In this document: positions 8,484 through 22,080 of the stretch, one piece after another
How the letters are laid out: each line of letters opens with the position of its first letter
Numbering within the stretch: the stretch's first letter is position 1
Sequence record: NC_129898.1
From: a phage
Length of the DNA stretch: 64,000 bases
Reading direction: 5' to 3' (one strand)
The notes under the pieces: generated by a model
What the model saw: only the letters and a program-made list of their open reading frames with translations
Told to the model about the DNA's origin: nothing
Database searches by the model: none
Made by a program: the position numbers and the translations under genes

Positions 8484-8837
8484 GATGAGTACCAACTTCA
8501 AGTCCCTGACACACCTAAGTATAAAACTGTATACACCTTCGACACAATTGAAGAGCTGGAAACATTTAAGTCCCAGCAGGAGGCTAAACTTCATGTGTTC
8601 GACGGTCATAAGTACAAAAAGGCACGCAAGGATGAAGAAGGAAACGAAGTAGTTGACAGTGATGGAAATACGGTATACGATCCTATCTTGAACGATGACG
8701 GAAAGCTTGAACTTATCTGGAGCCCTGTGGGCGAAATGGTGGTACATTGCTTCTGGCAAGCTTCTAAAATGATGGGCGTTCCGTTCCAGATCACAGGTGA
8801 ATACTTGTGTGGACGTAACTGGGGCGATTGTCACTAA
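8484..8837 (+). CDS. DNA polymerase, family A, exon 2
   Basis: Joining restores motif C as YYHDEYQLQV (T7 AWVHDEIQV); C-terminus NWGDCH resembles T7 PNWAICH. Confidence 0.7.
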   Translation, partial: DEYQLQVPDTPKYKTVYTFDTIEELETFKSQQEAKLHVFDGHKYKKARKDEEGNEVVDSDGNTVYDPILNDDGKLELIWSPVGEMVVHCFWQASKMMGVPFQITGEYLCGRNWGDCH

Positions 8838-8886
8838 TGTAAACTATCAACACACGGAAGTGTTGTTAGACAGAGAGGAGACTTTT

Positions 8887-9171
8887 ATGGTAGTAGAACC
8901 GACAAAAACATTCACCTCCATGACTATTCCTGTTATTATGCAGGTAGAGTGCGTTCAGGTGTCCCAAGTGTGGCCAGGTACTAAAATTCCAACAGGGCCT
9001 GATTTCTTCCAGGTTGGAAAGGTGTACAATGTATGGAAGGCACCGGATTGTTACCCTTTCATTAAAGATGACCGTGGAATGTTATGGTATCTAGGAAATG
9101 ATTTGACACTGCATCTTGGAAATGCTATTATTGCAGTGTTCCGGCTCAACAAGAAGGAGACAGATCAATGA
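8887..9171 (+). CDS. hypothetical small protein (KDDxG...W family)
   Basis: GAGGAG RBS before ATG 8887; motif IKDDRGMLWYL shared with neighbouring paralogues. Confidence 0.5.
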   Translation: MVVEPTKTFTSMTIPVIMQVECVQVSQVWPGTKIPTGPDFFQVGKVYNVWKAPDCYPFIKDDRGMLWYLGNDLTLHLGNAIIAVFRLNKKETDQ

Positions 9172-9395
9172 CAACTTTGGTTAAAGCTACGTTTGTAGAA
9201 GAAAAGATGACAGGCTTGTCATTCTTTAAAGAAGGAAAGACCTACAAGGTTTATTACGATAAGGATCGCGGAAACAATATGATCGAAGACGAGGAAGGTA
9301 TTTCCTGGTATATCTCTCACCTGGCAAATGGTGAGTATCATATCTATGGAACCACCCTACTTGCCAAGTTTGTAGCTGTTGAAGAGGATCTATGA
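9168..9395 (+). CDS. hypothetical small protein (KDDxG...W family)
   Basis: Start overlaps upstream stop; IEDEEGISWYI motif. Confidence 0.5.
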   Translation: MTTLVKATFVEEKMTGLSFFKEGKTYKVYYDKDRGNNMIEDEEGISWYISHLANGEYHIYGTTLLAKFVAVEEDL

Positions 9396-9586
9396 AAGTA
9401 AAGTATCTGGCTGAAGGTATGAGTAGGTATTTTACCCTTGGAGAAGAGTATTGGCCCTTTACGGAAAATGGAGATGTATACGTGAAGGATGACCAAGGTG
9501 TGCCGTGGTTTCTGCACCATAATGGGTTGGGGTATTCCATCTACTGCGGTGCAGTGAACAACACAACCCTTGCAGAGTTTGTCTAG
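9392..9586 (+). CDS. hypothetical small protein (KDDxG...W family)
   Basis: Start overlaps upstream stop; VKDDQGVPWFL motif; MKVK N-terminus. Confidence 0.5.
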   Translation: MKVKYLAEGMSRYFTLGEEYWPFTENGDVYVKDDQGVPWFLHHNGLGYSIYCGAVNNTTLAEFV

Positions 9587-9596
9587 AGGAGGCAGA

Positions 9597-9968
9597 ATGT
9601 TAGTAAAAGGTACCCACACAGTCAAGCAACGTATTGAAGTTGAGATCGATGATTGTGAGCTGAAGCATATTTTACGGTCATGCTCCAACGTTTTGCTCCT
9701 TAGTATTCTCCAGGAGCGAGCGGAGAGCGAGTTCCTAAATGCACTAGCAGGCCGTCCTGGGGACTTCTGTGTGCGTAAGCGTGAAGATCATAAGTCATGG
9801 TTGTGGGAAATCGATGCCGACTGGGATTACCACAAAAATGAGGGCATAGATGAGCCTATTCGTGAATTGACAGATAAAGAGATTCAGATGTACAATGAAG
9901 TTTGTCATTGGGCAAAACGCCAACAAATTTACCTCGACCCTGTGTGGATGATTGAAAATAGCCATTGA
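9597..9968 (+). CDS. hypothetical protein
   Basis: GAGGAGG RBS before ATG 9597; no recognisable motif. Confidence 0.5.
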   Translation: MLVKGTHTVKQRIEVEIDDCELKHILRSCSNVLLLSILQERAESEFLNALAGRPGDFCVRKREDHKSWLWEIDADWDYHKNEGIDEPIRELTDKEIQMYNEVCHWAKRQQIYLDPVWMIENSH

Positions 9969-10044
9969 CAAGAAGTAAGATTGGATATAAGATGCTTCAC
10001 ACAAACAGAGAGTTGATTTTTAAATAATTGAGGAGACTGCTAAG

Positions 10045-10299
10045 ATGCAAATCACTTTGAAGCCAGAATGCGTTGCAAATGACCGAGCTTTTAAAGATTG
10101 CACAATCGGTGCAATTTATGAAGCAGAGTTTTGTGAGAACCCTCTGGTAAAAGCTCTTCTGGAAGAAGGGACCTATTTATCACAAGAAGAACTTGATGAG
10201 TTGGAAAACTCAGCCCAGTGCCTTACCTTTAAAGATGATGAAGGAGATTCTGTCTGGTGCACCGTTAACGAAGTAGTTTTTGTAAAACCTGAGCATTAA
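10045..10299 (+). CDS. hypothetical small protein (KDDxG family)
   Basis: GAGGAG RBS; DRAFKDCT and FKDDEGDSVWCT shared with 10363-10635. Confidence 0.5.
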   Translation: MQITLKPECVANDRAFKDCTIGAIYEAEFCENPLVKALLEEGTYLSQEELDELENSAQCLTFKDDEGDSVWCTVNEVVFVKPEH

Positions 10300-10362
10300 T
10301 ACTTGACAACAGCGATAGGGCCTAATATAATGGTCCTATCAAAACGAAAGGAGACCACAACA

Positions 10363-10635
10363 ATGACCAAACAGTATCAACGAATTAAAGCCAAGGTTAA
10401 GCCAGACTACTTGGAGAAGGACTCTGCTTTTCGAGACTGCACCGCAGACAAAGTTTACACAGGTGCCGTTCTGTTAAACGACGAATTTGAAGTGGATGTG
10501 CTGGGTAAAGAGGCTACTATCAAGGACGACCAGGGAGATTATGTTTGTTGCACCACCAGAGAGCTGGAGGTATTAGAATACTTCGGTGAAATCTTCACCT
10601 CTCTTGATGATTACTTAGATGACGAGGAAGAGTGA
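10363..10635 (+). CDS. hypothetical small protein (KDDxG family)
   Basis: AAAGGAG RBS before ATG 10363; DSAFRDCT and IKDDQGDYVCCT; acidic tail. Confidence 0.5.
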   Translation: MTKQYQRIKAKVKPDYLEKDSAFRDCTADKVYTGAVLLNDEFEVDVLGKEATIKDDQGDYVCCTTRELEVLEYFGEIFTSLDDYLDDEEE

Positions 10636-11036
10636 TGAAAAACATTTGGGATATTAATATCTTTGAAGCCTCTGAGCTTGACGGTGCCGATGGTGTTATT
10701 ATAGTTTCTGATGGAAAGGTAACATTGACCTCTGGACTGACCTACTATGACACTACCTACGTATTGGGCGATCTTGCCTTGTTGAAATCAACAGGCGACT
10801 CTCTGGAAGAACGTCTGCAAGGATTTGCCTTTAAAGAAGGCACAAACACCACACTGATGTGCACTACACGCACTGTTCAGTTGGGCAACGGGGTATATAT
10901 GGTCATTGCAGTGTGCCCCAAATTCAGCAACATTAATAAAGATGATGCTGACGCTGTCAACGACGTGGTTGTCCTCTTCGTGGGTGACGCTATGGCAGAT
11001 CTGATGAATGCAGGAGAAGCAGCAAATGAAGACTGA
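10632..11036 (+). CDS. hypothetical protein (134 aa)
   Basis: Start overlaps upstream stop; no recognisable motif. Confidence 0.5.
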   Translation: MMKNIWDINIFEASELDGADGVIIVSDGKVTLTSGLTYYDTTYVLGDLALLKSTGDSLEERLQGFAFKEGTNTTLMCTTRTVQLGNGVYMVIAVCPKFSNINKDDADAVNDVVVLFVGDAMADLMNAGEAANED

Positions 11037-11328
11037 AAACATTACACCAGAAGGATTCCTGAAAGTATACCGTGAACTATTGTATACCACAGAGGATAGT
11101 GTTCTAGAGTACCCAGAATATCTTTTGCTGTATAAGTATCTGCAGGAAGCTGGTGAAAATCTTCCAATTAGCGCAGAAGGTGGTCCAAACTGGGTCTACA
11201 GTGCATGGAGAAAGGTTGACATTCTCCCAGATCCCGGTAAAGATATGGTAGTTTGGCAGCTTATCAACAACATCGGGATTCCAATCTTTGATGAAGCTGT
11301 TAAAATCTATTTTGAACTTGACGATTAA
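11026..11328 (+). CDS. hypothetical protein
   Basis: Overlapping ORF; start 11008 or 11026 uncertain. Confidence 0.45.
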   Translation: MKTENITPEGFLKVYRELLYTTEDSVLEYPEYLLLYKYLQEAGENLPISAEGGPNWVYSAWRKVDILPDPGKDMVVWQLINNIGIPIFDEAVKIYFELDD

Positions 11329-11344
11329 TATCAGGAGACTTAAG

Positions 11345-11590
11345 ATGGCTGAAGTAGTTGCTCGTGCAGGACAGAAAGTGCGTTGTGTTGAAGTGGGTTT
11401 TGGTGGCAAAGGGTGTCAAAACTTGACTCAAGGTAAGGAATACACTGTTATTTCTGGCGGTGGTGACGAAAGTATTGTGTTCGATGATCATATTCTGGAT
11501 GCTGAAAACTTTGAAATAATTGACGATGATGGTGATCCGATCACCTGCCTGCTGAACGGGAGTTGGGGAACTTTCGAAGTAATTGGCTAA
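11345..11590 (+). CDS. hypothetical small protein
   Basis: CAGGAGA RBS; IDDDGDPITCLLNGSWG motif related to KDDxG family. Confidence 0.5.
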   Translation: MAEVVARAGQKVRCVEVGFGGKGCQNLTQGKEYTVISGGGDESIVFDDHILDAENFEIIDDDGDPITCLLNGSWGTFEVIG

Positions 11591-11627
11591 CAAATACCTG
11601 TTGTAATTTACAGAAGGAGATGCTAAA

Positions 11628-12038
11628 ATGGTGTCTCCTTTATGTTGTTCAAATAAAATCGGAGATTCCACAATGGAACAAATGAACGATCAAGCGTCGG
11701 TTGCGATGAACGAGCAAGAACAACCTCAAGACTTTTTCTTAGGGTTAAGCAAAGATCAAGTGTCTCTTCTGTTGGTACTTTCTTCTTTCATGGGGAGACT
11801 TCAGGAGCTTACACAACAACCGGAGGCTGAACAGTTATTTCAGGCCCTGCGTGAAGAAGAAAAATATCGTCGTTTGGATTATGCCTTAGGTTGGGTAGCT
11901 CAACAACGAGATATGCTAATGGCCCTTTCTGGGACAACAAGTTTTGCAATGGGACTGTTGGCTCAAGTCCAGGACAAATTAATTCAGGCAGGGTTTGCAA
12001 ACACAGCGACCACTAACGAAGAACAAGGAGACAAATAA
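11628..12038 (+). CDS. hypothetical protein (136 aa)
   Basis: ORF ends TAATG overlapping next gene; no recognisable motif. Confidence 0.45.
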   Translation: MVSPLCCSNKIGDSTMEQMNDQASVAMNEQEQPQDFFLGLSKDQVSLLLVLSSFMGRLQELTQQPEAEQLFQALREEEKYRRLDYALGWVAQQRDMLMALSGTTSFAMGLLAQVQDKLIQAGFANTATTNEEQGDK

Positions 12039-13309
12039 TGAGCGTTATTCAACAATTCACCAACCCGATGAATCCGCGTGAAACTGTTTTACTGGCTCAC
12101 GGTATGATTAAACGTGTCAGCATCAAGCCTATCAAAGGTGCTGATCCTACAACAGGTATTAAAACCACTGTGTGGCAAGGTAAGAAAATCGAGTCCAGTC
12201 ACACCATCTCTTTACTGATTTCTGAACTGGATTCTTCTGATAACCTACTTCAAGGTGGTGAAGAAGTTTGGATCAGCATGGGTGATAAATTGCTCAAACC
12301 CGGTCATCAAGATTCCGTCTCTGTTAAAATTGATGACAAGTGGGAAACAGTAACGCCAGGATGGATCGTAAATATCCCTTTAAAGGCAAATGAGCATAAC
12401 GGTAAGACCTACTACAAAGGCTCATTGGCTAAAATGGTTAAGCTGGGGGCAGGAGATGCTCCAGCAGCCCCACAGCAACAAAAACAGCAACAAGGCACAC
12501 AATCACAAGGCCAGAAGCAGAAACCTCAGCAGAATGCCAATCAGGACGTTTTACGCATCTATGGTGATGTGACTCAGATTGTTGGTAACGTGGTTACTGT
12601 CAATGACCACAAGATTGGCGAAGGTGCTATGGTTGTCTCCGATGAGCAGCTTAAAGACCTGGTGGTTGGCGGTCGTGTTGCAGCTATTGTTGACAAAGAC
12701 ACCGGGAATATTATCAGCGGCTTCAAGGCCTACCCGCCTAAAGCAGAGAACGGTACACAAGGTTCTGGTGGTAAGCGTAAATCCTCTTACGACCCCATCG
12801 GTGTAGAGACAGGGCACAGTATCAATGCGTTGCAGATCATTCTGGATCGCGGGTTTAAGATTGACAGTCCTTTAGATGTGGCTAAAACACTGCACGTGGT
12901 CACCATCGAGCTTAAGAAAGAGTACGCTCAAGCCACCAACCGAACTGAAGATGAAGTAGGTGCCAGTGTTGGTAATGCGGTATTGAACGCTTGTCGCCGT
13001 ATTGACAAGAAGACGAAAGTTGATGATTTTGCAGTAGCAATTACTGCAGAGGCAAAAGATGTCTTGACTAATCTTGCTGAACCGTTGTATGATTGGATCA
13101 AGAACGGTGCTGGAGCCACTGACCATCAAGAGCCTCAAGCTGCCAAACAGGAAGCCTCCCCACAGCAAAACACTGTAGACGCCCCTCCTGTAGATGATGC
13201 GGAAGATGACCCAATGGATCAGAATCCAGCACAGTATGACTTCTGTGATGACATACCTTTCGCTCCGGTGGGTTTGCAATATGGCAAAAGTAGAATCCAC
13301 GCATTGTAA
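12038..13309 (+). CDS. putative single-stranded DNA-binding protein (SSB-like acidic DDIPF motif)
   Basis: Q-rich linker; acidic region ending DFCDDIPF (matches bacterial SSB tail DDDIPF) but frame continues 16 codons; position after polymerase as in T7-like modules. Confidence 0.4.
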
Positions 13310-13904
13310 GAGGTGCATCAAGTGCGGAGAGGTGAAAAACCTCTCCGAGTTCTACAAACACCCAAAGATGTCTGACGGTCATCTTAATAAGTGCAAAGAG
13401 TGTTGTAAGAAGGCCAGTAGGGAGGCTGACCAGTTTTCCCACGACTCTTCAGAAAAAGGTGTAATACGCGTGTTGTACAAGGCTCAAAAGTGCAACAGCA
13501 AGCAAAGAGGTCACCCTCCTCCGACTTACACCAAAAAAGAGTTTAAGGAGTGGCTATACCTGAACGGTTACAAAGAGTTGTATGACCAGTGGGTAGCCAG
13601 CGGATACGACAAAAGGAAAAAGCCCTCTTGTGACAGGATAGATGATTTCAAAGGGTACTCTTTTGATAATATCCGTTTAACGACCTGGGGAGAAAATAAA
13701 GACAAGCAGACGGAGGATATTCTGTTGCATAGAAGCACCAGCGGTAGACGGTGTAAAAATGTAAGGAGGTTGGACATGAATGGCAACGTTCTTAAAGAAT
13801 GGGTATCCCACAATTCTTGTAGAAGAGAAACCGGAATATGTGTTGATTACTACATTCATGAAAAAATTCCAGCTCCCGATGGATACCTCTATGAATACTT
13901 TTAG
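13281..13904 (+). CDS. HNH_3-like endonuclease-like protein with N-terminal zinc ribbon (possible free-standing homing endonuclease)
   Basis: [11 protein letters not shown]...KCKECC zinc ribbon; [23 protein letters not shown] resembles HNH_3 core with His positions replaced; start overlaps end of SSB-like gene. Confidence 0.45.
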
Positions 13905-13918
13905 CACCTAACTGACAT

Positions 13919-13948
13919 AGCCCTGCCCGAAAGGGTGGGGCATTTTTG
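13919..13948 (+). terminator. intrinsic terminator (repeat of 2796-2823)
   Basis: Same CCCTGCCC-GAAA-GGGTGGGG hairpin followed by T-run. Confidence 0.6.
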
Positions 13949-13966
13949 TATAAGGAGATCTGAAAA

Positions 13967-14383
13967 ATGACATTAGAAGATATCATTGTTAAACCTGAGA
14001 ACTATGACCAATACAATCTATCAACTCAATCTGTGGACCTTGGATGCGCTACGGTCAGTGCGTGGCTGGTTAACGGAAAAGAGCTGGATAAATGCTTAGA
14101 AGCTCACATGACTGTGAACAAGTTCCTTGATGAAAATACTCACTGGCTTGAGGGTGCAGGCGTATATGCTTCATGGTTGGAGAGTATGGGATTCGACTAC
14201 CAATCTGAAGAGGGGTGGTGGAGCTATTTAGCTATCTGTCCAGAGACGCTACAATGCTTCATGAAATATTCTGAAGATTTGGAGTACCGGGCGAGGGTTG
14301 ATAGTGCTATTGCCCGTTATAGCCGTAAACCTTTTTCCCACGACATTAAAACTGTGGAAGAATTTGTTGAAGTTTTCTGTTGA
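13967..14383 (+). CDS. hypothetical protein (138 aa)
   Basis: ORF after terminator; no recognisable motif. Confidence 0.5.
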   Translation: MTLEDIIVKPENYDQYNLSTQSVDLGCATVSAWLVNGKELDKCLEAHMTVNKFLDENTHWLEGAGVYASWLESMGFDYQSEEGWWSYLAICPETLQCFMKYSEDLEYRARVDSAIARYSRKPFSHDIKTVEEFVEVFC

Positions 14384-14479
14384 CACAGATTGAAAGGTGT
14401 GCAATTATAACTTCATAGAACGGGAGGACGTGATGAACGAAGAAAACTGGGATGTATAACTAACAGGAGGCCACTGCCC

Positions 14480-14677
14480 ATGATTTATCGAATCCGTGTA
14501 AGAGAAGATGCACCAGGCTGTTACTTTGACTGGCGTGGGTGGTGGTTTCTCCACCCGATGGATGGACTCACAGATAGAATGCTGGATGCTGCCCTTTATA
14601 CAGATACCGACATAGAATATAATCTCTATCTGAAGGACGGTATAGATAACGGTCTATTTGAAGCAATTCCTGTGTAA
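14480..14677 (+). CDS. hypothetical small protein
   Basis: AGGAGG RBS; no recognisable motif. Confidence 0.45.
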   Translation: MIYRIRVREDAPGCYFDWRGWWFLHPMDGLTDRMLDAALYTDTDIEYNLYLKDGIDNGLFEAIPV

Positions 14678-14745
14678 GAGGATGTGATAGCCATGTTTTA
14701 TGATCTTCCTATAGCGCCACCACCTGTTGAACACGGAGAACTAAG

Positions 14746-15171
14746 ATGACCTATGAAATGCCAAAACTGATTCGTGATGATGCCCAAAACGCTCACACCA
14801 TTATTATGGGCAAACGCATGGATATTATTTGTCATAAAGATTTCTGGGAAGGAAGTTACTTCACAGAGTATTTTGGTAAACTGGACAATGGTCTGCTGAT
14901 CCAGTTCTACACCGATGCGGAAAACAACATTCACTGGGAGTTCGAAACTGAAGATATCCATAAACTTTTCACCTTCCTCGGTATCAAGGTTGAGGCCAAG
15001 TTTGAAGAAGGTGAGTGCGACGATTGTGGATTCTACGAGGTAACAGATTTCTATCTTCCGAGTGGTGAGAACCTTTACTATGAAAGCCACTTCGGTAACT
15101 CTAATATGCCACAGAGCTGGACTGAGTTTTTTGAAATTGTGGAAGAGGAGCTGGCATATCGTGATTATTGA
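14746..15171 (+). CDS. hypothetical protein (141 aa)
   Basis: ORF; no recognisable motif. Confidence 0.5.
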   Translation: MTYEMPKLIRDDAQNAHTIIMGKRMDIICHKDFWEGSYFTEYFGKLDNGLLIQFYTDAENNIHWEFETEDIHKLFTFLGIKVEAKFEEGECDDCGFYEVTDFYLPSGENLYYESHFGNSNMPQSWTEFFEIVEEELAYRDY

Positions 15172-15619
15172 TACTGTAGAGGGAGATTTAATCTCCCTTT
15201 TTAAGAGCGGCACTGGTCACCTGATCCACGGTTGTAACTGCTTCCACACAATGGGTAAGGGTGTAGCAAAACAGATTGCCCGTGAGTTCCCTCAAGCATT
15301 GGAAGCTGATAAAACGACTACCTACGGTTGCCTAAGTAAGCTAGGTGCGTTCTCTCGGTGGGAGCACTTATCTCCGAAAGGTATTGTATACGGAATCAAT
15401 CTGTACACTCAGTTCTACCCAGGGCCTAATGCTGAATATTTCTCAATTCTGAAAGGCTTTGAGCGAGTCAATGAGATATTTAAGGGATCGACTTTACCAT
15501 TCTACATCCCTAAGATTGGGTGCGGCATAGGCGGCTTGAAGTGGGGACACGTGGAGGACGTTATTAACCTTGCCACTTTTGATATAGATATTATCGTGGT
15601 GGAGTACAAAGAGTGTTGA
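15159..15619 (+). CDS. macro-domain protein (ADP-ribose binding / possible ADP-ribosyl hydrolase)
   Basis: GDL...IHGCNCFHTMGKGVAKQI and IPKIGCGIGGL resemble macro-domain signatures; GTG start after GAGGAG inferred. Confidence 0.6.
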
Positions 15620-15870
15620 CAGCAGGATTTTGAGGTGGTATAGTCACCACAACGACTAAGACAGGGGAACACTATGGAGACTAAAATCTTAATTCTAGCT
15701 GTGATAGATACAACAGAAGGAGCCATGTTTGAATCTGCAGGAGGGTATTTCTACCTGCCCTCTGGAAAAAGAACTTCCGAGCCGAGTAAAGATTCAATCC
15801 TTAAAGTGTTCCCGTGTGCTTTCTGGCTGGAGATTCTGATAGAGGATTGCAGAGGATTGGGGAGATAATT

Positions 15871-16065
15871 ATGAGAAACAAGAAAGAGCTTTACTCTGGA
15901 GAGTGGATCAACGATCAACAGGTCGGAGAGGTAACCTGCTTCCGGTGCTTTACTCGGTACAATCTTAAAACTGCACCAAAAAGTGTTCCAAAGACTGATG
16001 GTTATTACATAAAAGAACCTCATTGCCCAAAATGCAAATGCCGATTATACTGGAGTAACCTGTAA
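15871..16065 (+). CDS. small zinc-ribbon protein
   Basis: CFRC...CPKCKC cysteine pairs; ATG 15871 after GGGGAG. Confidence 0.45.
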   Translation: MRNKKELYSGEWINDQQVGEVTCFRCFTRYNLKTAPKSVPKTDGYYIKEPHCPKCKCRLYWSNL

Positions 16066-16128
16066 AAGGTTGACATCTGAAAACTGCAGTATATAATACA
16101 AACATAGACTAGCAGAGAGGAACAAATT

Positions 16129-16320
16129 ATGGTAATTTTTAATCGAGACGGTATCATAGTTAGACAGCACCCATTCCTTGAATACTATCAAATTGAGCAA
16201 TGGTGTTACGGAGATTGCAGTCACTCCTATGGGCAAAGTTGGGGATATCGCACAGTTTTTGAATCAACAGATCTTGATAAAGTAAAACAGAAAGTTTTAG
16301 AACTTCTTAACAACAAGTGA
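16129..16320 (+). CDS. hypothetical small protein
   Basis: ORF after promoter-like TTGACA/TATAAT at 16070-16100. Confidence 0.45.
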   Translation: MVIFNRDGIIVRQHPFLEYYQIEQWCYGDCSHSYGQSWGYRTVFESTDLDKVKQKVLELLNNK

Positions 16321-16330
16321 GTATTATACT

Positions 16331-16663
16331 ATGGTAACATTAGAAAGACGTAAAGCTATCGCCGCCACACTGGCAGACATCTTTTGGGATTGTAATTTAA
16401 AAGATACCCGATATTGCGGCGCATCTATAGATGTATTATTCCCACGGCCCACCATTGTTGCAATGGGTAGCCTACTGGGCGTAGTTGCAGGTGCATGGGA
16501 TAAGGAAGGCGGTTTCTATATCTGGCAGCCTGACTACGGGACCTGGAAAGAAGTAAGAGGTGCTGAGGACTTTGGACCTGCAGCTGCTAAGATGGATGGC
16601 TGGGAAATTTATGTTGGAAACGACATGAAGCTGAAAGGCGAGATTGTTTACTGGTTACCTTAA
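16331..16663 (+). CDS. hypothetical protein (110 aa)
   Basis: ORF in compact array. Confidence 0.45.
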   Translation: MVTLERRKAIAATLADIFWDCNLKDTRYCGASIDVLFPRPTIVAMGSLLGVVAGAWDKEGGFYIWQPDYGTWKEVRGAEDFGPAAAKMDGWEIYVGNDMKLKGEIVYWLP

Positions 16664-16683
16664 GAAAGTGCAGGAGATAAAGT

Positions 16684-16929
16684 ATGAACAAAGGGTGGAC
16701 ATTCGTAGACGGCGTTGAAAACATGCCTCTTGGAAAGTATATCGTAGCCATGGCTGACGAGAATGGCAATGTAGATTTCGGAGCTTGCGAGGTTGTTCTT
16801 GCAGGATCTGGTGACTATGTGCACAAAACTGGGGTAATTAATGGTCAGTTCTACTTTGATCACAACCCTGTTGTAGCGTATACGGCTATGCCAGAGTTCA
16901 AGTTCCCAAAGGAGGGTGCCGATGTTTAA
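16684..16929 (+). CDS. hypothetical small protein
   Basis: AGGAGA RBS; DENGNVDFG motif. Confidence 0.45.
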   Translation: MNKGWTFVDGVENMPLGKYIVAMADENGNVDFGACEVVLAGSGDYVHKTGVINGQFYFDHNPVVAYTAMPEFKFPKEGADV

Positions 16930-17116
16930 GCTTAAATCTGCATGGAACATTGCTGTAGGTGATGAGATCCGCATTCCGGGTGGGAAGACCGTTATGAAGA
17001 TATCTCGTATTGAATACGAAGGTGACCGTGTATTCCACATTTTTGCAAAAGATGGTCGAGAAATTTATATACAGGCAGGCTCACACATCTATATTCGTAA
17101 AGGGGATGACAAATGA
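16916..17116 (+). CDS. hypothetical small protein
   Basis: Overlaps upstream stop; IFAKDGREIYI motif. Confidence 0.45.
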   Translation: MPMFKLKSAWNIAVGDEIRIPGGKTVMKISRIEYEGDRVFHIFAKDGREIYIQAGSHIYIRKGDDK

Positions 17117-17454
17117 CAGAGATCATCATTTCAACTGCAGGGTATGTATTCCTGACAATCATTGCGCTGATCATCTTGGTGGTGGTGTATGGATTTGTTA
17201 TCCTGCCTATTCTTGAGACATTTAGTTTGTGTCGGTGTTGGAGAAAGGCTTACGGACCACAGCCGTGGAAAGACTGGCCTCATCTGTTACGCATAGCGTT
17301 CTCCTATGCCTATGATCACTCCAGCAGTGCATGCATAACTGGGTACCACGCCCACAATTGGAACTGGGAAGGGTTGGGGAGATGGAATGTTACAAAGACT
17401 ATACCTCTACGCATGTACAAAGGAAAAGGTGGGATTGATGGGAATACCTGTTAA
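17113..17454 (+). CDS. hypothetical membrane protein
   Basis: Hydrophobic N-terminal segment (TM helix). Confidence 0.45.
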   Translation: MTEIIISTAGYVFLTIIALIILVVVYGFVILPILETFSLCRCWRKAYGPQPWKDWPHLLRIAFSYAYDHSSSACITGYHAHNWNWEGLGRWNVTKTIPLRMYKGKGGIDGNTC

Positions 17455-18082
17455 AGACAGAAAAGTATGTGGTCGTGGAGTAAACGATTTAAAAGACAAA
17501 GTCCCAATGTACCAATCTGTTAATGGTAAGAGAGTACCAGAACCCCACTATGCTACATGGAAAGCATTATTCCAGAGGTGCTACGGCGATAACTCAAAGT
17601 ACCATACAGGTTGTGAAGTTGTAGAAGATTGGTGGTTGTTCTCAGAATTCTGGAAATGGATGGATACACAAGAGTGGAAAAGAGACGCTAAGAAGTTCAC
17701 TCTTGACAAAGATCTGAAAATCCCTGGAAACAGAATATACTCCCCAGAAACATGCATGTTTGTTCCACCACAAATAAACACCCTATTTGGCATAAGACAG
17801 GCAGCACGAGGGGATTTACCTTTGGGTGTGACACTTAGAAAAGATGTAAACAAGTATCTCGTGCATTGTCATCGAGATGGAAAAATTGTTCATGGCGGTC
17901 ATTTCGATGATCCACAGACAGCACACAAGGTGTGGCAAGAAATGAAACTTGAGGAGATGAAACTTCAGGCTATTAAAAACAAAGATGAGATTTGGCTGTT
18001 CGCCATTAAACGTGCAATAACTATCCTTGAGAATGATTTGAAAAATAATAAGGAGACTATAACATTGGTGAAATTTATTTAA
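17438..18082 (+). CDS. hypothetical protein, possible homing-endonuclease-associated DNA-binding protein
   Basis: HYATWKALFQRCYG...GCEVVEDWWLFSEFWKWM pattern recalled from phage HNH/AP2-type proteins; no catalytic motif identified. Confidence 0.4.
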   Translation: MGIPVKDRKVCGRGVNDLKDKVPMYQSVNGKRVPEPHYATWKALFQRCYGDNSKYHTGCEVVEDWWLFSEFWKWMDTQEWKRDAKKFTLDKDLKIPGNRIYSPETCMFVPPQINTLFGIRQAARGDLPLGVTLRKDVNKYLVHCHRDGKIVHGGHFDDPQTAHKVWQEMKLEEMKLQAIKNKDEIWLFAIKRAITILENDLKNNKETITLVKFI

Positions 18083-18410
18083 GATATTTATGGTAGTATT
18101 TATTTTAAAATTATAAAAATTTTAGGCGATGAGGGAAAATATGTAATGGATTTTCCCTTATTTATCAGATATTTGCAGATATTTGGAAATCCTTAGAAAA
18201 TCAGAAAATGGATCGAAAACTAAAATGGATTTTTTCAAGACAGGCACGATAAGCTGCGCTGCTCATTCTATCGTTCGCACCGTACTTCAAATCACCATTC
18301 CAGATTTTCCGCACATACTCTCACCCCTCTGCCAGAACTTTCCCAACTTACCTTCAGCCTTTTATGACAATAAGTTAATTATTATCAGTAAGTTTTGATA
18401 CATCTCTCTC

Positions 18411-18590
18411 AGTACTCGATCTGTTTTTCATTTCAAAGATTGGATTTTCTGAAAATTTTTCTCGATAAATTTTTCGGTACTCGATCTGTTTTTCGTTTTC
18501 TGAATCGGATTTTCTTGAAATTGGTCCAGCACCAGATCTAAAATTTTTGGGAACGAAAGCGATTTTTCGTTTTCAGAAATGGATTTTTAA
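18411..18590 (+). repeat. tandem imperfect direct repeats (about 60-70 bp period, 3 copies)
   Basis: GTACTCGATCTGTTTTTC[A/G]TTTC...GGATTTTCT at 18411 and 18477, diverged copy at about 18559. Confidence 0.6.
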
Positions 18591-18733
18591 AATTTCTATA
18601 TGGGAATATTTTATGAGGTATTATTTTATATAGAATTGTCACGGTAGGTAATTAGCATGCTAACTAAATTTATGAAATGCGAAAAGTTCTCATTTAGAAT
18701 TTTGAATGATAATCATTCTCGTTTGCAGAATAA

Positions 18734-18758
18734 CGGGCACCCCCGGTGATTGTCTCCC
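18734..18758 (+). repeat. 25-bp element CGGGCACCCCCGGTGATTGTCTCCC
   Basis: Near-copy at 18875-18894; exact inverted copy at 27133-27158. Confidence 0.6.
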
Positions 18759-19064
18759 GGCCCCTACTGCCCCGGCTTGTTATTATAGTATCACACAGGA
18801 CAAAGAAAGCAAGAAGTTTTTGCATAAATTTTTAGACGATAATGATAATCGTTCTCATTTCATGCAGCGCCCATCCCCGGTGGTTGTCTCCCCCGTCACC
18901 GGTGCCTGCCGTCCTTTCGATATGTATATTGTGCCACCTGGCGGGGCCGCTGTCAACACTTTTCAAAAAAATTCTAACCTGATGCGCTAACCGTTGCAAC
19001 CTGGCGGGGCCAGCCTGGTGGGCCTATGCTATAGGATAGTAACAATTGAAGAGGAGGTACAAAA

Positions 19065-19181
19065 ATGGAAGGTAATATGATCCCCCTGGAAAATGTAGCT
19101 ATTAATGACGCTGAGGCTATCGCCCTGGTTGAAAAGGCTATGGCGGGAGCGTTGGAACATAAAGAAGAGTACGAAAAATGA
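19065..19181 (+). CDS. hypothetical small protein (38 aa)
   Basis: GAGGAGG RBS before ATG; below ORF-track length cutoff. Confidence 0.4.
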   Translation: MEGNMIPLENVAINDAEAIALVEKAMAGALEHKEEYEK

Positions 19182-19243
19182 CGGTTAACCTGGCAGGGGC
19201 GGCGGCTGGGGAATTTTGCCCAAAAAATAATTTTAACTAGTGG

Positions 19244-19272
19244 TTGACAGCTCGGACAGTTTTTGTTATTCT
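19244..19272 (+). promoter_or_regulatory. sigma70-like promoter
   Basis: TTGACA - 17 nt - TATTCT upstream of ORF 19326. Confidence 0.5.
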
Positions 19273-19325
19273 TATCCTCGCAAGGTGAACAACACCACAC
19301 TAATTAACAGAGAGGATAAAAAATC

Positions 19326-19523
19326 ATGAACGCCTACGGAATCAAAGTACGTCGCAGCACTCGCCAGGTGGTCACCGATCAAATGATTTGCCAGGTGGAT
19401 GTGACCATCAACAACGGGCAAGGCCTTTATAAATTCCGTCGCGGTCAGAGCTATACCCGGCAACAGCTTAATCGTTGCGCCCTGACAAAAGGCCAGATCA
19501 ACCACTGGTTTAATAAAAAATAA
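19326..19523 (+). CDS. hypothetical small protein
   Basis: Promoter and GAGAGGA RBS upstream. Confidence 0.5.
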   Translation: MNAYGIKVRRSTRQVVTDQMICQVDVTINNGQGLYKFRRGQSYTRQQLNRCALTKGQINHWFNKK

Positions 19524-19526
19524 GTA

Positions 19527-19555
19527 TTGACATATAGGCCGACACCAAATACACT
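19527..19555 (+). promoter_or_regulatory. sigma70-like promoter
   Basis: TTGACA - 17 nt - TACACT upstream of ORF 19588. Confidence 0.5.
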
Positions 19556-19587
19556 AAAAGCACAAAAGACACTGAGAGGATAAAATC

Positions 19588-19986
19588 ATGAAAACCACCA
19601 CCTTTAATTTTGATAATGCGGACTTTTCTTTTTCTGATGTCAAAAACTGCCGCCGTGATCGTGGATTTTACAAGGCCTATAATCTGGTGGGCCTGGACGA
19701 TGACAATAATTTGCACGAAGTAGCTGAGATCCGGTATTATGCCGCCGCCAGCGGGAACACTTACTACTGCGTTTTTTGGATACACGACAACAAGAACAAT
19801 AAGTACGGCTATACTGGCGGCAAGGCGAGCGGTCACGGTTACGATAAAGCTAACGCAGCACTTGAGAGCGCATTAAATGCTATGGGGATCACTGCCGACG
19901 GCTGGATCTACGAAGAAGAGTTTTTGTCGGCACTTGCTGCCCATCTAGGGTATAAAAAGCACATTGTGACATGTGCCCACGAATAA
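19588..19986 (+). CDS. hypothetical protein (132 aa)
   Basis: Promoter and GAGAGGA RBS upstream. Confidence 0.5.
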   Translation: MKTTTFNFDNADFSFSDVKNCRRDRGFYKAYNLVGLDDDNNLHEVAEIRYYAAASGNTYYCVFWIHDNKNNKYGYTGGKASGHGYDKANAALESALNAMGITADGWIYEEEFLSALAAHLGYKKHIVTCAHE

Positions 19987-20068
19987 AAATCATTGACACG
20001 CTGCAAAATTCAAGTAAACTAGACACAAAAGGCGGGAATGTTTCCCGCCAACACAAAGGAAAAAGATC

Positions 20069-20473
20069 ATGAATAAGAACGTACGCCGCATCATGAACGA
20101 GTTGGCAAACGATGAAAAAATTATTGACATGCATTTGATCAACATTTGCCGCCGTTGTGTAACATATAACAACCGCGCCGCAAAAGCGCGTGAGATGAAC
20201 GCAAAAGGCACCTTAAAGCCATTCCAGGTGGTGGTAAAGGCCATTAAAAATGTAACTAATACGGCAAACCAGGTACAGGGGAACACCAACGAGAGTACCA
20301 ATATTGATCCGGCTTACATCATGAAACGGATCCGGACCTATAAGAACAAAGAGCAAGTGTATAATGTTATAGACTGGTTGGATTCTATGGGCGACGTGGT
20401 GTACAATAGATTCTCGGCAGCTATTGAGATCCAGCTTGACAGGTTGGACGGTAAAGTACTGAAAACTTATTAA
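20069..20473 (+). CDS. hypothetical protein (134 aa)
   Basis: Promoter 19992-20019, hairpin GGCGGGAATGTTTCCCGCC, CA-rich leader, RBS. Confidence 0.5.
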   Translation: MNKNVRRIMNELANDEKIIDMHLINICRRCVTYNNRAAKAREMNAKGTLKPFQVVVKAIKNVTNTANQVQGNTNESTNIDPAYIMKRIRTYKNKEQVYNVIDWLDSMGDVVYNRFSAAIEIQLDRLDGKVLKTY

Positions 20474-20521
20474 GTTTATTTTTAGATGGCCTTGACTCTA
20501 GGGCCATCAATAAAGTAAACT
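20474..20521 (+). repeat. conserved intergenic hairpin/promoter-like module (copy 1 of 4)
   Basis: ATTTATTTTTAGATGGCCTTGACTCTAGGGCCATCAATAAAGTAAAC; stem GATGGCC/GGCCATC with TTGAC in loop. Confidence 0.55.
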
Positions 20522-20553
20522 AGTCTCAACTAAGCGAAAAAGGGGGCTTTAAG

Positions 20554-20673
20554 ATGAGCACTACACGCCAATACACAAAGGTAACTATTATCGTTTGCGT
20601 TGTCGGTTACATCCTGGCGCAAATGTTAATGAGTAGCGCCAACAGTTTTGCAAAATTTTTCTTAAATTTTTAA
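20554..20673 (+). CDS. hypothetical small membrane peptide (39 aa)
   Basis: AAAGGGGG RBS; hydrophobic core. Confidence 0.35.
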   Translation: MSTTRQYTKVTIIVCVVGYILAQMLMSSANSFAKFFLNF

Positions 20674-20701
20674 TTGACAAGTAAATCTCAATAAGTATAC
20701 T
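20674..20701 (+). promoter_or_regulatory. sigma70-like promoter
   Basis: TTGACA - 16 nt - TATACT; near-identical promoter at 22512-22539. Confidence 0.55.
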
Positions 20702-20752
20702 TAAACACGTAAACGGGAAAACTTCCCAGAACACACAAAAGGAGAAAACACC

Positions 20753-21094
20753 ATGACTACTATGACCGCCGCAGAAAAAGCTATGCAGATCGCCGCGCTG
20801 AAAAAACAGATCGCAGACCTTGAGAACAAGATCGATAACTTTGAAATCGACGAGGACAAGTACGACGAAAACTATAATGAATGGCTAGACGAGATCCACG
20901 GCGAAATTATGATCGGTAACATTTCTTTTCTTCCGTCGCGTATCCTCAAAGAGTTAGATCCTATTGCTTACCGCTGCGGATTTAGCGATTACATCGATAG
21001 CCTGGATATTGAGGACGATGAAGAGTACCAAGAATTGCAGATAGAGCTGGGAGAAGTGAAAGAGGAGCTTTCAAAGCTGGAAGAGAACGAGTAA
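20753..21094 (+). CDS. hypothetical acidic coiled-coil protein
   Basis: Promoter, hairpin, leader, AGGAGA RBS. Confidence 0.5.
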   Translation: MTTMTAAEKAMQIAALKKQIADLENKIDNFEIDEDKYDENYNEWLDEIHGEIMIGNISFLPSRILKELDPIAYRCGFSDYIDSLDIEDDEEYQELQIELGEVKEELSKLEENE

Positions 21095-21095
21095 A

Positions 21096-21143
21096 ATTTA
21101 TTTTTAGATGGCCTTGACTCCAGGGCCATCAATAAAGTAAACT
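21096..21143 (+). repeat. conserved intergenic hairpin/promoter-like module (copy 2)
   Basis: Near-identical to 20474-20521. Confidence 0.55.
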
Positions 21144-21181
21144 TTACACTGTTAACACTGAACTAATGAGGAGTTAAAACT

Positions 21182-21427
21182 ATGGCAGCACTAATCACCA
21201 AATATTATGCGCCTACCAACACAAAAAGCGCCCGTATCATGGTAAAAGGCTTCGGACGTAAAAAGGTTTACGCCTGGGACTATTCCCTAGATATGGAAGA
21301 CAATTATACCAACGTAATGACCGATTTTATTAATGATCTGAATAAACAGATCTTAACCGACTACAAAGTGACCGATATTGCTTACATAGGTGAAGGCGGG
21401 ATCTGTTTTGTAGGCATTGTGAAATAG
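21182..21427 (+). CDS. hypothetical small protein
   Basis: GAGGAG RBS. Confidence 0.5.
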   Translation: MAALITKYYAPTNTKSARIMVKGFGRKKVYAWDYSLDMEDNYTNVMTDFINDLNKQILTDYKVTDIAYIGEGGICFVGIVK

Positions 21428-21470
21428 TTATTTTTCGGTGGTCCTGGTTGCAGGGCCATCTATAAAGATA
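21427..21470 (+). repeat. conserved intergenic hairpin module (diverged copy 3)
   Basis: TTATTTTTCGGTGGTCCTGGTTGCAGGGCCATCTATAAAG. Confidence 0.4.
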
Positions 21471-21502
21471 ATTTATTAACACCATGAAAGGAGAAAGTAC
21501 AC

Positions 21503-21856
21503 ATGATCAGCGGGGCTAGTTTTATTATTGGCGCTATTGCTACGGCTTTAATTGTAAACAAGATCCAGGATAAAAAGGAAAGAGGAAGTACCGCCCTTGC
21601 AGAATATCCATTTTGGACATTTAACGATAACGAAGATTATATTATAAAGTATAAAAATAAAGAAGGCGACCAAGTAACACCGCGACCGATCCCGGCTTAC
21701 AAAATGCAGGAAACACTATACCGCTTGGAGGCGGGGGGCGCAAAAATTGTTGACTTTTGGGGATACGACCACACAGATCAGGAAGTTATAAAGCGCCGTA
21801 TCCGGGCTATTCAGGCCAATATTGAGGTTAACAAGGGGGGAATATATGAAAATTAA
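21503..21856 (+). CDS. hypothetical membrane-anchored protein
   Basis: N-terminal hydrophobic helix; AAGGAGA RBS. Confidence 0.5.
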   Translation: MISGASFIIGAIATALIVNKIQDKKERGSTALAEYPFWTFNDNEDYIIKYKNKEGDQVTPRPIPAYKMQETLYRLEAGGAKIVDFWGYDHTDQEVIKRRIRAIQANIEVNKGGIYEN

Positions 21857-22043
21857 TTTCGAGAAAATTGTAAAGCGCCCTCATGATTCCGAAGAGTTGC
21901 CAGAACGCCGACAGCGCAACAATAAACTGAATAAGCCAAAAAGGTTTGGGAAGATCTGGCGGAATCATTATGATCGTAAATTGCCCGGCCTACTTTTGGA
22001 ACGTGAACGACAGGCAGAACGATACCGCCATAAAGACAAATAA
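21846..22043 (+). CDS. hypothetical basic small protein
   Basis: ATG 21846 after AAGGGGGG; Arg/Lys-rich. Confidence 0.4.
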   Translation: MKINFEKIVKRPHDSEELPERRQRNNKLNKPKRFGKIWRNHYDRKLPGLLLERERQAERYRHKDK

Positions 22044-22051
22044 CAACCAAC

Positions 22052-22080
22052 GCCCCGCCATTGTGCGGGGCTTTTTATTT
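22052..22080 (+). terminator. intrinsic terminator
   Basis: CCCCGC-CATTGT-GCGGGG hairpin followed by CTTTTTATTT. Confidence 0.55.

What the first reader, a model, noticed from the sequence alone, without database searches (positions are those of the whole stretch)
15159..15619. Macro-domain protein among early genes
Sequence resembles macro-domain signatures (GDL...NCFHTMGKGVAKQI; IPKIGCGIGG). Macro domains bind or hydrolyse ADP-ribose derivatives, so a phage copy could reverse host ADP-ribosylation or degrade NAD-derived signals used in defence. Function is not established here.
Basis: partly seen in the sequence, partly recalled or inferred. Interest (0 to 1): 0.6.

Follow-up and report, generated by a model that had tools for sequence, protein, structure and literature searches.

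The report
Phage macrodomain, likely anti-DarT factor
This is a real, conserved macrodomain gene of an rV5-like E. coli phage, a relative of phage T4 Tk.4/AdfM, and it most likely strips the ADP-ribose that the bacterial DarT2 defence toxin puts on phage DNA; it is an ordinary, already annotated kind of gene.

Summary
A 152-codon gene (GTG 15161 to stop 15619, + strand) encodes a macrodomain. Evidence: Pfam Macro above its cut-off, PHROG 335 at 2e-59, an AlphaFold model with pLDDT 96, TM-score 0.78-0.85 to TARG1, and dN/dS of 0.13-0.28.

The window is a Vequintavirus (rV5/FV3-like). Near-identical genes are already annotated 'macro domain protein' or 'phosphatase'.

The protein is 40% identical over its full length to T4 Tk.4. 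A 2025 preprint renamed Tk.4 AdfM because its loss sensitises T4 to DarTG2.

The active site has Asn26 plus an invariant Gln84 where DarG and TARG1 have the catalytic Lys. SCO6735, a proven thymidine-ADP-ribose DNA hydrolase, has the same arrangement.

The main rival comes from the same phage family. Adpp of Vibrio phage Gary is an ADPR-1''-phosphate phosphatase that works with NARP1 against aRES. The window protein is 31-34% identical to Adpp, lacks the signature residues and longer loop of the NARP1-linked proteins, and has no NARP1 partner nearby or in FV3.

Verdict: a new member of a known kind. Anti-DarT2 DNA de-ADP-ribosylation is most likely (about 0.55) but untested. Interest is low to moderate.

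The parts
15161..15619 (+). Macrodomain gene: GTG start, 152 codons plus TGA. It is the orthologue of FV3_00191, bas58_0093 and the HMD-6 'macro domain protein', and a homologue of T4 tk.4 (adfM).
15145..15150 (+). Shine-Dalgarno-like GAGGAG, 10 nt upstream of the GTG start.
   Evidence: Read directly from the sequence
14746..15171 (+). Upstream 141-aa ORF (PHROG 8157, unknown function). Its stop overlaps the macro gene start by 11 nt, so translational coupling is likely. It is not related to T4 vs.
15227..15268 (+). Codons H23-A36 (HGCNCFHTMGKGVA): first ADP-ribose-binding loop. N26 is invariant and equivalent to DarG N22 and SCO6735 N27. G34 and A36 are also invariant.
15398..15448 (+). Codons N80-F96 (NLYTQFYPGPNAEYFSI... 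start). The NLYTQ motif carries the invariant Q84 (codon 15410-15412) at the position of the catalytic Lys of DarG (K80) and TARG1 (K84), equivalent to SCO6735 Q85. It is followed by the short 'PGPN-EY' loop shared with T4 Tk.4.
15509..15535 (+). Codons P117-G125 (PKIGCGIGG): second, diphosphate-binding glycine-rich loop. P117 and G120 are invariant.
14380..14623 (+). The two nearest upstream sigma-70-like promoter matches: 14380-14408 (TTGACA-17-AATTAT with TG) and 14595-14623 (TTTATA-17-TATAAT). They are candidate sources of the transcript.
   Evidence: consensus matches only
15616..15644 (+). Near-consensus sigma-70-like promoter (TTGACA-17-TATAGT with TG) overlapping the macro stop codon. 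It would serve the next small ORF (15674-15868).

Best explanation
The gene encodes a stand-alone macrodomain of the TARG1/DarG/SCO6735/Poa1p (ALC1-like) class. It is the Vequintavirus counterpart of T4 Tk.4, renamed AdfM ('anti-DarT factor macrodomain').

Proposed mechanism:
1. The gene is transcribed from the + strand arm, which is rich in host-type promoters, probably early in infection.
2. The protein binds the ADP-ribose that the host toxin DarT2 attaches to thymidine in single-stranded phage DNA.
3. It hydrolyses the ribose-base bond, releasing free ADP-ribose and restoring a replicable template. It thus acts as an orphan antitoxin.
4. Catalysis would follow the SCO6735 pattern rather than the DarG/TARG1 lysine pattern. 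Asn26 positions the invariant Gln84, which holds the distal ribose. The two glycine-rich loops (H23-A36 and P117-G125) clamp the diphosphate.

Shown here by computation: the gene is real and under purifying selection, the predicted fold is a macrodomain, the site residues are as described, and the protein is homologous to Tk.4.

Inferred: the substrate, the defence system targeted, and the timing of expression.
For: Homology to T4 Tk.4:
- 40% identity over the full length, E 1e-41, and the same PHROG 335.
- In the preprint, tk.4 was the single significant hit when a T4 transposon library was grown on a DarTG2 host, and a clean knockout sensitised T4 to DarTG2 (10.1101/2025.11.20.689424).

Active site:
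- In a 67-sequence family alignment, N26, G34, A36, N80, Q84, P117 and G120 are invariant.
- Q84 aligns with Q85 of SCO6735 and with the Lys of DarG and TARG1.
- SCO6735 cleaves thymidine-linked ADP-ribose from ssDNA and rescues DarT toxicity. Its Q85A mutant is inactive and its N27S mutant nearly inactive (PMC9411070).

Subfamily placement:
- The window protein shares HGCNCFHTMG, YTQF, the short PGPN-EY loop and GIGG with T4 Tk.4.
- Most NARP1-linked proteins instead have HQ[AC]NCF, YGQY and GL[AG]GG, and all have longer loops after the Gln.
- A neighbour-joining clade holding the window protein and T4 Tk.4, and excluding Gary Adpp, has 63% bootstrap support.

Other support:
- The defence-system HMMs for DarG match its macro half (PADLOC 46.8 bits; NCBIfam 43.3 bits).
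- Another phage macrodomain, PhiKZ AdfM, removes DarT2 marks from DNA in vitro (PMC13309987).
- The fold is confirmed.
Against: - No member of the Tk.4 subfamily has been assayed on ADP-ribosylated DNA. The T4 evidence is genetic and comes from one preprint.
- 40% identity does not guarantee the same substrate. Vibrio phage Gary Adpp belongs to the same family, is also Gln-type, is 31-34% identical, and is a proven ADPR-1''P phosphatase.
- The DarG HMMs score Adpp as well as they score the window protein, so they do not separate the two activities.
- Tree resolution is weak. One NARP1-adjacent Acinetobacter phage protein falls inside the Tk.4 clade.
- The Vequintavirus gene itself has not been tested. 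It is not among the Bas54 genes that the HIDEN-SEQ study names as hits, and the text read reports no DarTG2 screen of Bas54.
Confidence: 0.55

Rival explanations
1. It is an ADPR-1''-phosphate phosphatase of the Adpp/Poa1p type. It would convert ADPR-1''P to ADP-ribose. The ADPR-1''P could come from RES-domain NADases of the aRES defence, or from the phage's own NAD-dependent RNA repair.
For: - Gary Adpp is a biochemically proven phosphatase and belongs to the same Gln-type family (sequence from Table S1). It is 31-34% identical to the window protein.
- RefSeq and PHROG call this family 'phosphatase'.
- Poa1p is a structural neighbour, and the window protein shares its H23 and N26 positions.
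- aRES occurs in E. coli.
- rV5-type phages carry an RNA ligase 1 / Sir2 / MazG cluster (FV3_00075-78, outside the window) that has been predicted to do NAD-dependent RNA end repair.
Against: - Adpp only helps together with NARP1.
- No Adps or Namat gene flanks the window gene.
- None is annotated anywhere in the FV3 genome.
- No Escherichia phage appears in the table of NARP1-linked macro proteins.
- The window protein lacks the HQ[AC]NCF / YGQY signatures of most NARP1-linked proteins and the longer loop after the Gln that all of them have.
- The Sir2/RNA ligase cluster is about 50 kb away, in a differently oriented gene block of FV3.
Confidence: 0.2
2. It is a hydrolase for another ADP-ribose conjugate. 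Candidates are protein ADP-ribosylation, RNA base or ribose ADP-ribosylation (for example uracil-ADPr), and O-acetyl-ADP-ribose. Alternatively it is a promiscuous enzyme that covers several of these as well as the DarT2 marks.
For: - Enzymes of this class are promiscuous. SCO6735 acts on both protein and DNA substrates. SCO6735, TARG1 and DarG also remove uracil-ADPr from RNA (PMC13036486).
- Some database records name homologues 'O-acetyl-ADP-ribose deacetylase'.
- A Sir2-like gene exists in related genomes.
Against: - No ADP-ribosyltransferase or sirtuin is adjacent.
- The database names are automatic and untested.
- The only phenotype known for the nearest characterised relative is the DarTG2 one.
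Confidence: 0.15
3. It is a non-catalytic binder, either a sponge for ADP-ribose-derived immune signals or a stoichiometric inhibitor of DarT.
For: - Macrodomains can act as readers.
- Catalytically dead SCO6735, DarG and TARG1 still inhibit DarT in vitro.
- A 2022 survey argued that phage macro domains mostly target small soluble ADPr derivatives (PMC9503650).
Against: The residues needed for catalysis in SCO6735 (Asn and Gln) are invariant across 67 family members, which argues for an enzyme. No data link this family to cyclic ADPR signals.
Confidence: 0.05

Closest known systems
Phage T4 Tk.4 = AdfM (anti-DarT factor macrodomain), bioRxiv 10.1101/2025.11.20.689424
   Same: - Stand-alone macrodomain of about 150 aa, 40% identical end to end, in the same PHROG 335.
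- Same motifs: HGCNCFHTMG, NLYTQF-PGPN-EY and GIG.
- Both lie among small genes of a large virulent E. coli myovirus, and each overlaps the stop of the gene upstream.
   Different: - Different phage family (Vequintavirinae against Straboviridae), with no conserved synteny. The upstream gene is unrelated to T4 vs.
- 60% of residues differ.
- The anti-DarTG2 phenotype is known only for T4.
Adpp of Vibrio phage Gary (NARP1-AP pathway), bioRxiv 10.64898/2026.01.28.702374
   Same: Same family and same Gln-type site (NVYGQY). Similar size. 31-34% identity.
   Different: - Adpp lies between Adps and Namat and works only with them. The window gene has no NARP1 partner.
- Adpp has HQCNCF, YGQY, a 7-residue longer loop after the Gln, and GLAGG.
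SCO6735 of Streptomyces coelicolor (PDB 5E3B) and BT1257 (2FG1/2AFC)
   Same: - Best-scoring solved relatives of the family profile (E 2-3e-17).
- Same Asn + Gln pair in place of the Lys-based site.
- SCO6735 is a proven thymidine-ADPr DNA hydrolase and rescues DarT toxicity.
   Different: - Only about 25-27% identity.
- SCO6735 has a longer, Lys-rich mobile loop proposed to help bind DNA (its K89E mutant loses much DNA activity), and Val25 where the window protein has Gly24.
- It is a bacterial chromosomal gene.
DarG2 antitoxin macrodomain (T. aquaticus 5M31/5M3E, M. tuberculosis 5M3I) and the DarG-like AdfM of PhiKZ (gp104)
   Same: Macro fold (TM-score about 0.75). Conserved Asn (DarG N22, PhiKZ N23, window N26). 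The same proposed job, removing DarT2 marks from DNA.
   Different: - The catalytic Lys (K80 in DarG, K78 in PhiKZ) is Gln in the window protein.
- There is no C-terminal DarT-binding domain and no adjacent darT.
- Only 21-24% identity.
- PhiKZ AdfM scores 132.9 bits on the PADLOC DarG model against 46.8 for the window protein.
Human TARG1/OARD1 and yeast Poa1p
   Same: Top structural matches (TARG1 E 1.9e-10, TM-score 0.78-0.85; Poa1p E 6.6e-10). The His23 position is shared.
   Different: - TARG1 uses the Lys84/Asp125 pair; the window protein has Gln84 and Gly at those positions.
- Poa1p has Ser at the Gln position and a large insertion.
- 21-25% identity.

Membership tests
Macro domain superfamily (Pfam PF01661) | HMM match above the curated threshold | tested here: met
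   27.4 bits against a gathering score of 22, E 3.4e-6. Only profile positions 1-32 align. The family profile matches 15 solved macrodomain sequences (2fg1 to 7omu) at E 2e-17 to 5e-11.
Macro domain superfamily (Pfam PF01661) | Three-layer alpha/beta macro fold with two glycine-rich ADP-ribose-binding loops | tested here: met
   AlphaFold2 pLDDT 96.1. The top 19 Foldseek hits are all macrodomains of the TARG1/DarG/Poa1p group, probability 1.00, TM-score 0.65-0.79 on the query. Loops MGKGVA and IGCGIGG are conserved.
T4 Tk.4-type AdfM subfamily (within PHROG 335) | Full-length homology to T4 Tk.4 and shared subfamily motifs (HGCNCFHTMG; YTQF plus the short PGPN-EY loop) | tested here: met
   40% identity, E 1e-41. 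Same PHROG. Motifs shared. Neighbour-joining clade with 63% bootstrap.
T4 Tk.4-type AdfM subfamily (within PHROG 335) | Required for phage growth on DarTG2 hosts; removes thymidine-linked ADP-ribose from DNA | not testable with these tools
   This needs a phage knockout with plaque assays and an enzyme assay. Only T4 genetics exist.
Gln-type ALC1-like macrodomain hydrolases (SCO6735-like) | Gln at the position of the DarG/TARG1 catalytic Lys, held by the conserved Asn | tested here: met
   Q84 and N26 are invariant in 67 sequences. They align to SCO6735 Q85 and N27.
DarG2 antitoxin (NCBIfam NF048014, PADLOC DarG) | Score above the equivalog cut-off; two-domain protein (macro plus C-terminal DarT-binding domain); encoded next to darT; catalytic Lys80 | tested here: not met
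   43.3 bits against a cut-off of 250, with only model positions 3-143 of 338 matched. The protein is 152 aa. Neighbours are small unknown ORFs. Gln replaces the Lys.
Adpp (NARP1-associated ADPR-1''P phosphatase) | Encoded within or next to an Adps-Namat (NARP1) operon | tested here: not met
   Flanking ORFs have no Pfam domains and fall in PHROGs of unknown function. No such genes are annotated in FV3. No Escherichia phage appears in the authors' table.
Adpp (NARP1-associated ADPR-1''P phosphatase) | Sequence signatures common among NARP1-linked proteins (HQ[AC]NCF in most, YGQY, a longer loop after the Gln) | tested here: not met
   The window protein has HGCNCF, YTQF and the short loop. These signatures are correlative, not proven specificity determinants, and not every NARP1-linked protein carries all of them.
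Adpp (NARP1-associated ADPR-1''P phosphatase) | Dephosphorylates ADPR-1''P to ADPR | not testable with these tools
   This needs an LC-MS assay with purified protein.
TARG1/OARD1 | Catalytic Lys84-Asp125 dyad | tested here: not met
   The window protein has Gln84, and Gly at the Asp125 position (GCGIGG against GCGLDR).

The most novel reading that the evidence does not exclude
The Tk.4-type macrodomains may not be dedicated anti-DarT2 enzymes. They could be a distinct specificity class within the phage Gln-type family. In Vequintaviruses the protein might act on a different or additional substrate, such as ADP-ribosylated RNA (uracil-ADPr or another defence-made mark) or the ADPr by-products of the phage's own Sir2/RNA-ligase repair module. 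The short loop against the long loop after Gln84 would then be the switch between nucleic-acid de-ADP-ribosylation and ADPR-1''P phosphatase activity.
Probability: 0.12. Interest if true: 0.55.

Novelty: new member of a known kind. Interest (0 to 1): 0.27.

Why it matters
If the assignment is right, rV5-like phages, which are popular candidates for therapy and biocontrol of E. coli O157, carry a ready-made counter to DarTG2. That helps predict their host range on strains encoding this defence.

One widespread phage family (tblastn matches in 2,738 of 50,697 phage records) now contains members assigned to two different anti-defence jobs: AdfM against DarTG2 and Adpp against aRES. The signature differences listed here (residue after His23, residue before Gln84, loop length) give a testable hypothesis for how specificity is split. 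None of this is surprising to a specialist.

Tried and rejected
- **Synteny with T4.** The upstream 141-aa ORF is unrelated to T4 vs (E 31), so no synteny argument is available.
- **Flanking genes.** Ten flanking ORFs gave no Pfam domain. PHROG matches were unknown-function families, plus two homing-endonuclease-like ORFs. There is no operon partner.
- **ADPr/NAD genes in the - strand arm.** Twenty larger - strand ORFs (42.7-63.9 kb) showed nucleotide metabolism and other domains only: RNR, NrdD, ThyX, PhoH, ClpP, ligase. No ART, NADAR, Nudix or NARP domain was found, and 8 of the 20 had no Pfam hit.
- **Whole-genome check in FV3.** No NARP1 or NARP2 genes are annotated. A Sir2/RNA ligase cluster exists but lies far from the macro gene.
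- **Finding Gary Adpp by tblastn with Poa1p.** This failed; no Vibrio phage appeared among the 60 records listed or the organism groups named. The contexts of Vibrio phage EniLVp02 and Bacillus phage Nate were not NARP1 either. The Adpp sequence was finally taken from the preprint's Table S1.
- **DarG HMMs as a discriminator.** Rejected, because they score Adpp and the window protein alike.
- **Bas54 conditionally essential gene bas54_0108.** By gene order it is about 15 genes away from the macro gene (bas58_0093, bas59_0089), so it is not this gene.
- **Bootstrap tree.** The first attempt timed out and was redone with a faster distance method.
- **Rfam and tRNA scans.** These gave nothing at the locus.

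Full report
**What is at the coordinates**

The longest ORF over the region is 15062-15619 (+). The conserved start is GTG at 15161, giving 152 codons plus TGA at 15617-15619. The same GTG start and length are annotated in Escherichia phages HMD-6, rV5_ev146 and FV3.

A GAGGAG site lies 10 nt upstream of the start. The start overlaps the stop of the preceding 141-aa ORF (14746-15171).

**Is it a real gene and a macrodomain**

Yes, on all the evidence gathered:
- Pfam Macro scores 27.4 bits against a gathering score of 22, though only the N-terminal third aligns.
- PHROG 335 matches end to end at 2.1e-59.
- A single-sequence search of PDB finds DarG, Poa1p, SCO6735, BT1257 and TARG1. A 66-sequence family profile raises these to E 1e-14 to 2e-17.
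- An AlphaFold2 model built on that alignment has mean pLDDT 96.1 and pTM 0.91.
- Foldseek against PDB gives TARG1 (E 1.9e-10, TM-score 0.78 on the query and 0.85 on the target), then T. aquaticus DarG, Poa1p, M. tuberculosis DarG, BT1257 and SCO6735, all at probability 1.00.
- Against three orthologues, dN/dS is 0.28, 0.21 and 0.14, so the frame is under purifying selection.

**Genome and context**

The window is a Vequintavirus (rV5/FV3-like E. coli myovirus). Window positions 14000-17000 are 93-96% identical to 115 full-length phage records.

The gene is the orthologue of FV3_00191 ('phosphatase'), bas58_0093, and the HMD-6 'macro domain protein', which is 98% identical at the protein level. 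So the gene and its domain are already in public annotation.

It lies in a long + strand run of small ORFs downstream of the replication genes (methyltransferase, primase-helicase, DNA polymerase). That run ends at an ORF-poor zone of about 2.9 kb (about 27.9-30.8 kb), beyond which genes run on the - strand.

Sigma-70 consensus promoters are strongly enriched on the + strand here (60 against 32.2 +/- 5.8 expected). Several are perfect TTGACA-N16/17-TATAAT sites. This fits host-polymerase, hence early, transcription but does not prove it.

The ten neighbouring ORFs have no Pfam domain. They fall in PHROGs of unknown function, apart from two homing-endonuclease-like ORFs. The upstream partner is unrelated to T4 vs.

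**What relatives are known to do**

tblastn finds homologues in 2,738 of 50,697 phage records, mostly large myoviruses of enterobacteria, Pseudomonas, Vibrio, Acinetobacter and Aeromonas. Three members or neighbours of the family have experimental data.

1. **T4 Tk.4.** It is 40% identical to the window protein over the full length, E 1e-41. In a transposon screen, tk.4 was the single significant T4 gene needed on a DarTG2 host. A clean deletion sensitised T4 to DarTG2, and the authors renamed it AdfM (bioRxiv 10.1101/2025.11.20.689424). This evidence is genetic only.
2. **PhiKZ gp104.** It is also called AdfM. It removes thymidine-linked ADP-ribose from oligonucleotides, and its N23A mutant is dead (PMC13309987). 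It is a close DarG relative (132.9 bits on the PADLOC DarG model) and only 21% identical to the window protein.
3. **Adpp of Vibrio phage Gary.** This macro protein is encoded between the NARP1 genes Adps and Namat. It dephosphorylates ADPR-1''P so that NARP1 can rebuild NAD+ after cleavage by the aRES defence (bioRxiv 10.64898/2026.01.28.702374). Its sequence, taken from the preprint's Table S1, belongs to the same family as the window protein (31-34% identity).

**Active site**

In a 67-sequence alignment that includes T4 Tk.4, residues N26, G34, A36, N80, Q84, P117 and G120 are invariant. Residues H23, G24, C27, M31, D50, G62, Y82, T83, G88, I119, G122 and G125 are at least 90% conserved.

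Profile and multiple alignments place Q84 at a known catalytic position:

| Protein | Residue at the window Q84 position |
|---|---|
| Window protein, T4 Tk.4 | Gln |
| SCO6735 (Q85), BT1257 | Gln |
| Gary Adpp and all NARP1-linked proteins examined | Gln |
| DarG (K80), PhiKZ AdfM (K78), TARG1 (K84) | Lys |
| Poa1p | Ser |

SCO6735 is the biochemical precedent. It cleaves thymidine-ADPr from ssDNA and rescues DarT toxicity. Its Q85A and Q85E mutants are inactive and N27S is nearly inactive. The proposed mechanism is water-mediated, with Gln holding the distal ribose (PMC9411070).

The whole phage family, including T4 AdfM and Adpp, is therefore of this 'Gln type'. PhiKZ AdfM is 'Lys type'. 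I did not see the Gln-type classification in the parts of the two AdfM papers I read. It is an inference from alignments.

**Choosing between AdfM-like and Adpp-like**

Points favouring the AdfM reading:
- Identity is 40% to T4 Tk.4 against 31-34% to Gary Adpp.
- The window protein shares every Tk.4 subfamily signature: H-G-C-N-C-F-H-T-M-G, N-L-Y-T-Q-F, a short P-G-P-N-x-E-Y loop, and G-I-G.
- Most NARP1-linked proteins in Table S1 instead have H-Q-[AC]-N-C-F, Y-G-Q-Y and G-L-[AG]-G-G. All of them have longer loops after the Gln, by 3-7 residues.
- A neighbour-joining tree puts the window protein and T4 Tk.4 in one clade with 63% bootstrap support. That clade excludes the Gary and Pakpunavirus NARP1-linked groups.
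- There is no NARP1 gene beside the window gene or anywhere in the FV3 annotation. No Escherichia phage appears in the authors' list of NARP1-linked macro proteins. Adpp was shown to work only together with NARP1.

Points against:
- The tree is weakly resolved. One NARP1-adjacent Acinetobacter phage protein falls inside the Tk.4 clade, although it carries the long loop.
- The DarG HMMs score Adpp (44.6 bits) and the window protein (46.8 bits) alike.
- Enzymes of this class are promiscuous.
- rV5-type phages carry an RNA ligase 1 / Sir2 / MazG cluster (FV3_00075-78, outside the window). It has been predicted to do NAD-dependent RNA repair and could generate ADPr by-products.

**Conclusion and confidence**

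| Reading | Confidence |
|---|---|
| Orphan-antitoxin-like DNA de-ADP-ribosylase against DarT2, using the Asn26/Gln84 site | about 0.55 |
| Adpp-like ADPR-1''P phosphatase | about 0.20 |
| Other or broader ADP-ribose conjugate hydrolase | about 0.15 |
| Non-catalytic binder | about 0.05 |

Supported by computation here: the gene, the predicted fold, the conserved site residues, the homologies and the absence of a NARP1 partner. Inferred: the substrate, the defence countered and early expression.

**Novelty**

The gene is already annotated as a macro domain protein in near-identical phages. Its family has characterised members. The Vequintavirus copy itself is untested, so it counts as a new member of a known kind. 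Interest is low to moderate. The useful by-product is the set of signature differences between the Tk.4-type and the NARP1-linked proteins.

Noticed in passing
window 8146-8433 (+), with ORFs 5732-8161 and 8481-8837: Rfam finds a complete group I intron (RF00028, 75.6 bits, E 2e-17) overlapping the end of the large DNA-polymerase ORF. The next ORF corresponds to FV3_00206, also annotated 'DNA polymerase', so the polymerase gene appears to be split by an intron. FV3 carries an HNH endonuclease ORF (FV3_00208) at this place; the window lacks about 530 bp there, so its intron has no endonuclease gene.
   Followed up: partly
window 13261-13898 (ORF 13194-13904) and 17421-18177 (ORF 17387-18082): Two insertions are absent from both FV3 and HMD-6. 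Each carries a free-standing homing-endonuclease-like gene (PHROG 1035 EndoVII-like, and PHROG 953 HNH). They lie about 1.3 kb upstream and 1.8 kb downstream of the macro gene.
   Followed up: partly
window 46247-49132 (-): The anaerobic ribonucleotide reductase gene nrdD is split. The N-terminal part with the ATP cone is at 47963-49132 and the C-terminal glycyl-radical part is at 46247-47239. An HNH-like ORF (47360-47911) lies between them. FV3 also has a split nrdD, but its HNH insertion sits at a different position.
   Followed up: partly
window about 27900-30800: An ORF-poor zone of about 2.9 kb lies where the + strand and - strand gene arms converge. It has clustered copies of ATAGTTGCC/GGCAACTAT in both orientations at 28505-28696 and an 18-nt perfect inverted repeat at 28554-28571 / 28688-28705. 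A transposon study of the related phage Bas54 reports that its roughly 2 kb intergenic region between oppositely transcribed genes, apparently the same one, tolerates no insertions. It may be an origin or a non-coding element. No Rfam family matched.
   Followed up: partly
window 8000-24000 (+): Consensus sigma-70 promoters are very dense on the + strand (60 sites against 32.2 +/- 5.8 expected). Three are perfect 12/12 matches, at 10303, 16070 and 22512.
   Followed up: no
related records: Sixteen GenBank records named 'Campylobacter phage' (for example MG065658, C7; host given as C. jejuni for 15 of the matching records) are about 93% identical to this E. coli rV5-like sequence over 3 kb. This suggests mislabelled or contaminant assemblies.
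   Followed up: no
FV3 66025-68805 (L007 16025-18805), outside the window: Relatives carry an RNA ligase 1 / unknown / Sir2-like / MazG-like pyrophosphohydrolase cluster. A published survey predicted that it performs NAD-dependent RNA-end repair in phage V5. It is the only other NAD/ADP-ribose-linked module seen in this phage type.
   Followed up: partly
window 12038-13309 (+): A 423-aa protein with a long Gln/Lys-rich low-complexity middle section (PHROG 4477, unknown function, no Pfam hit), conserved in rV5-like phages.
   Followed up: no
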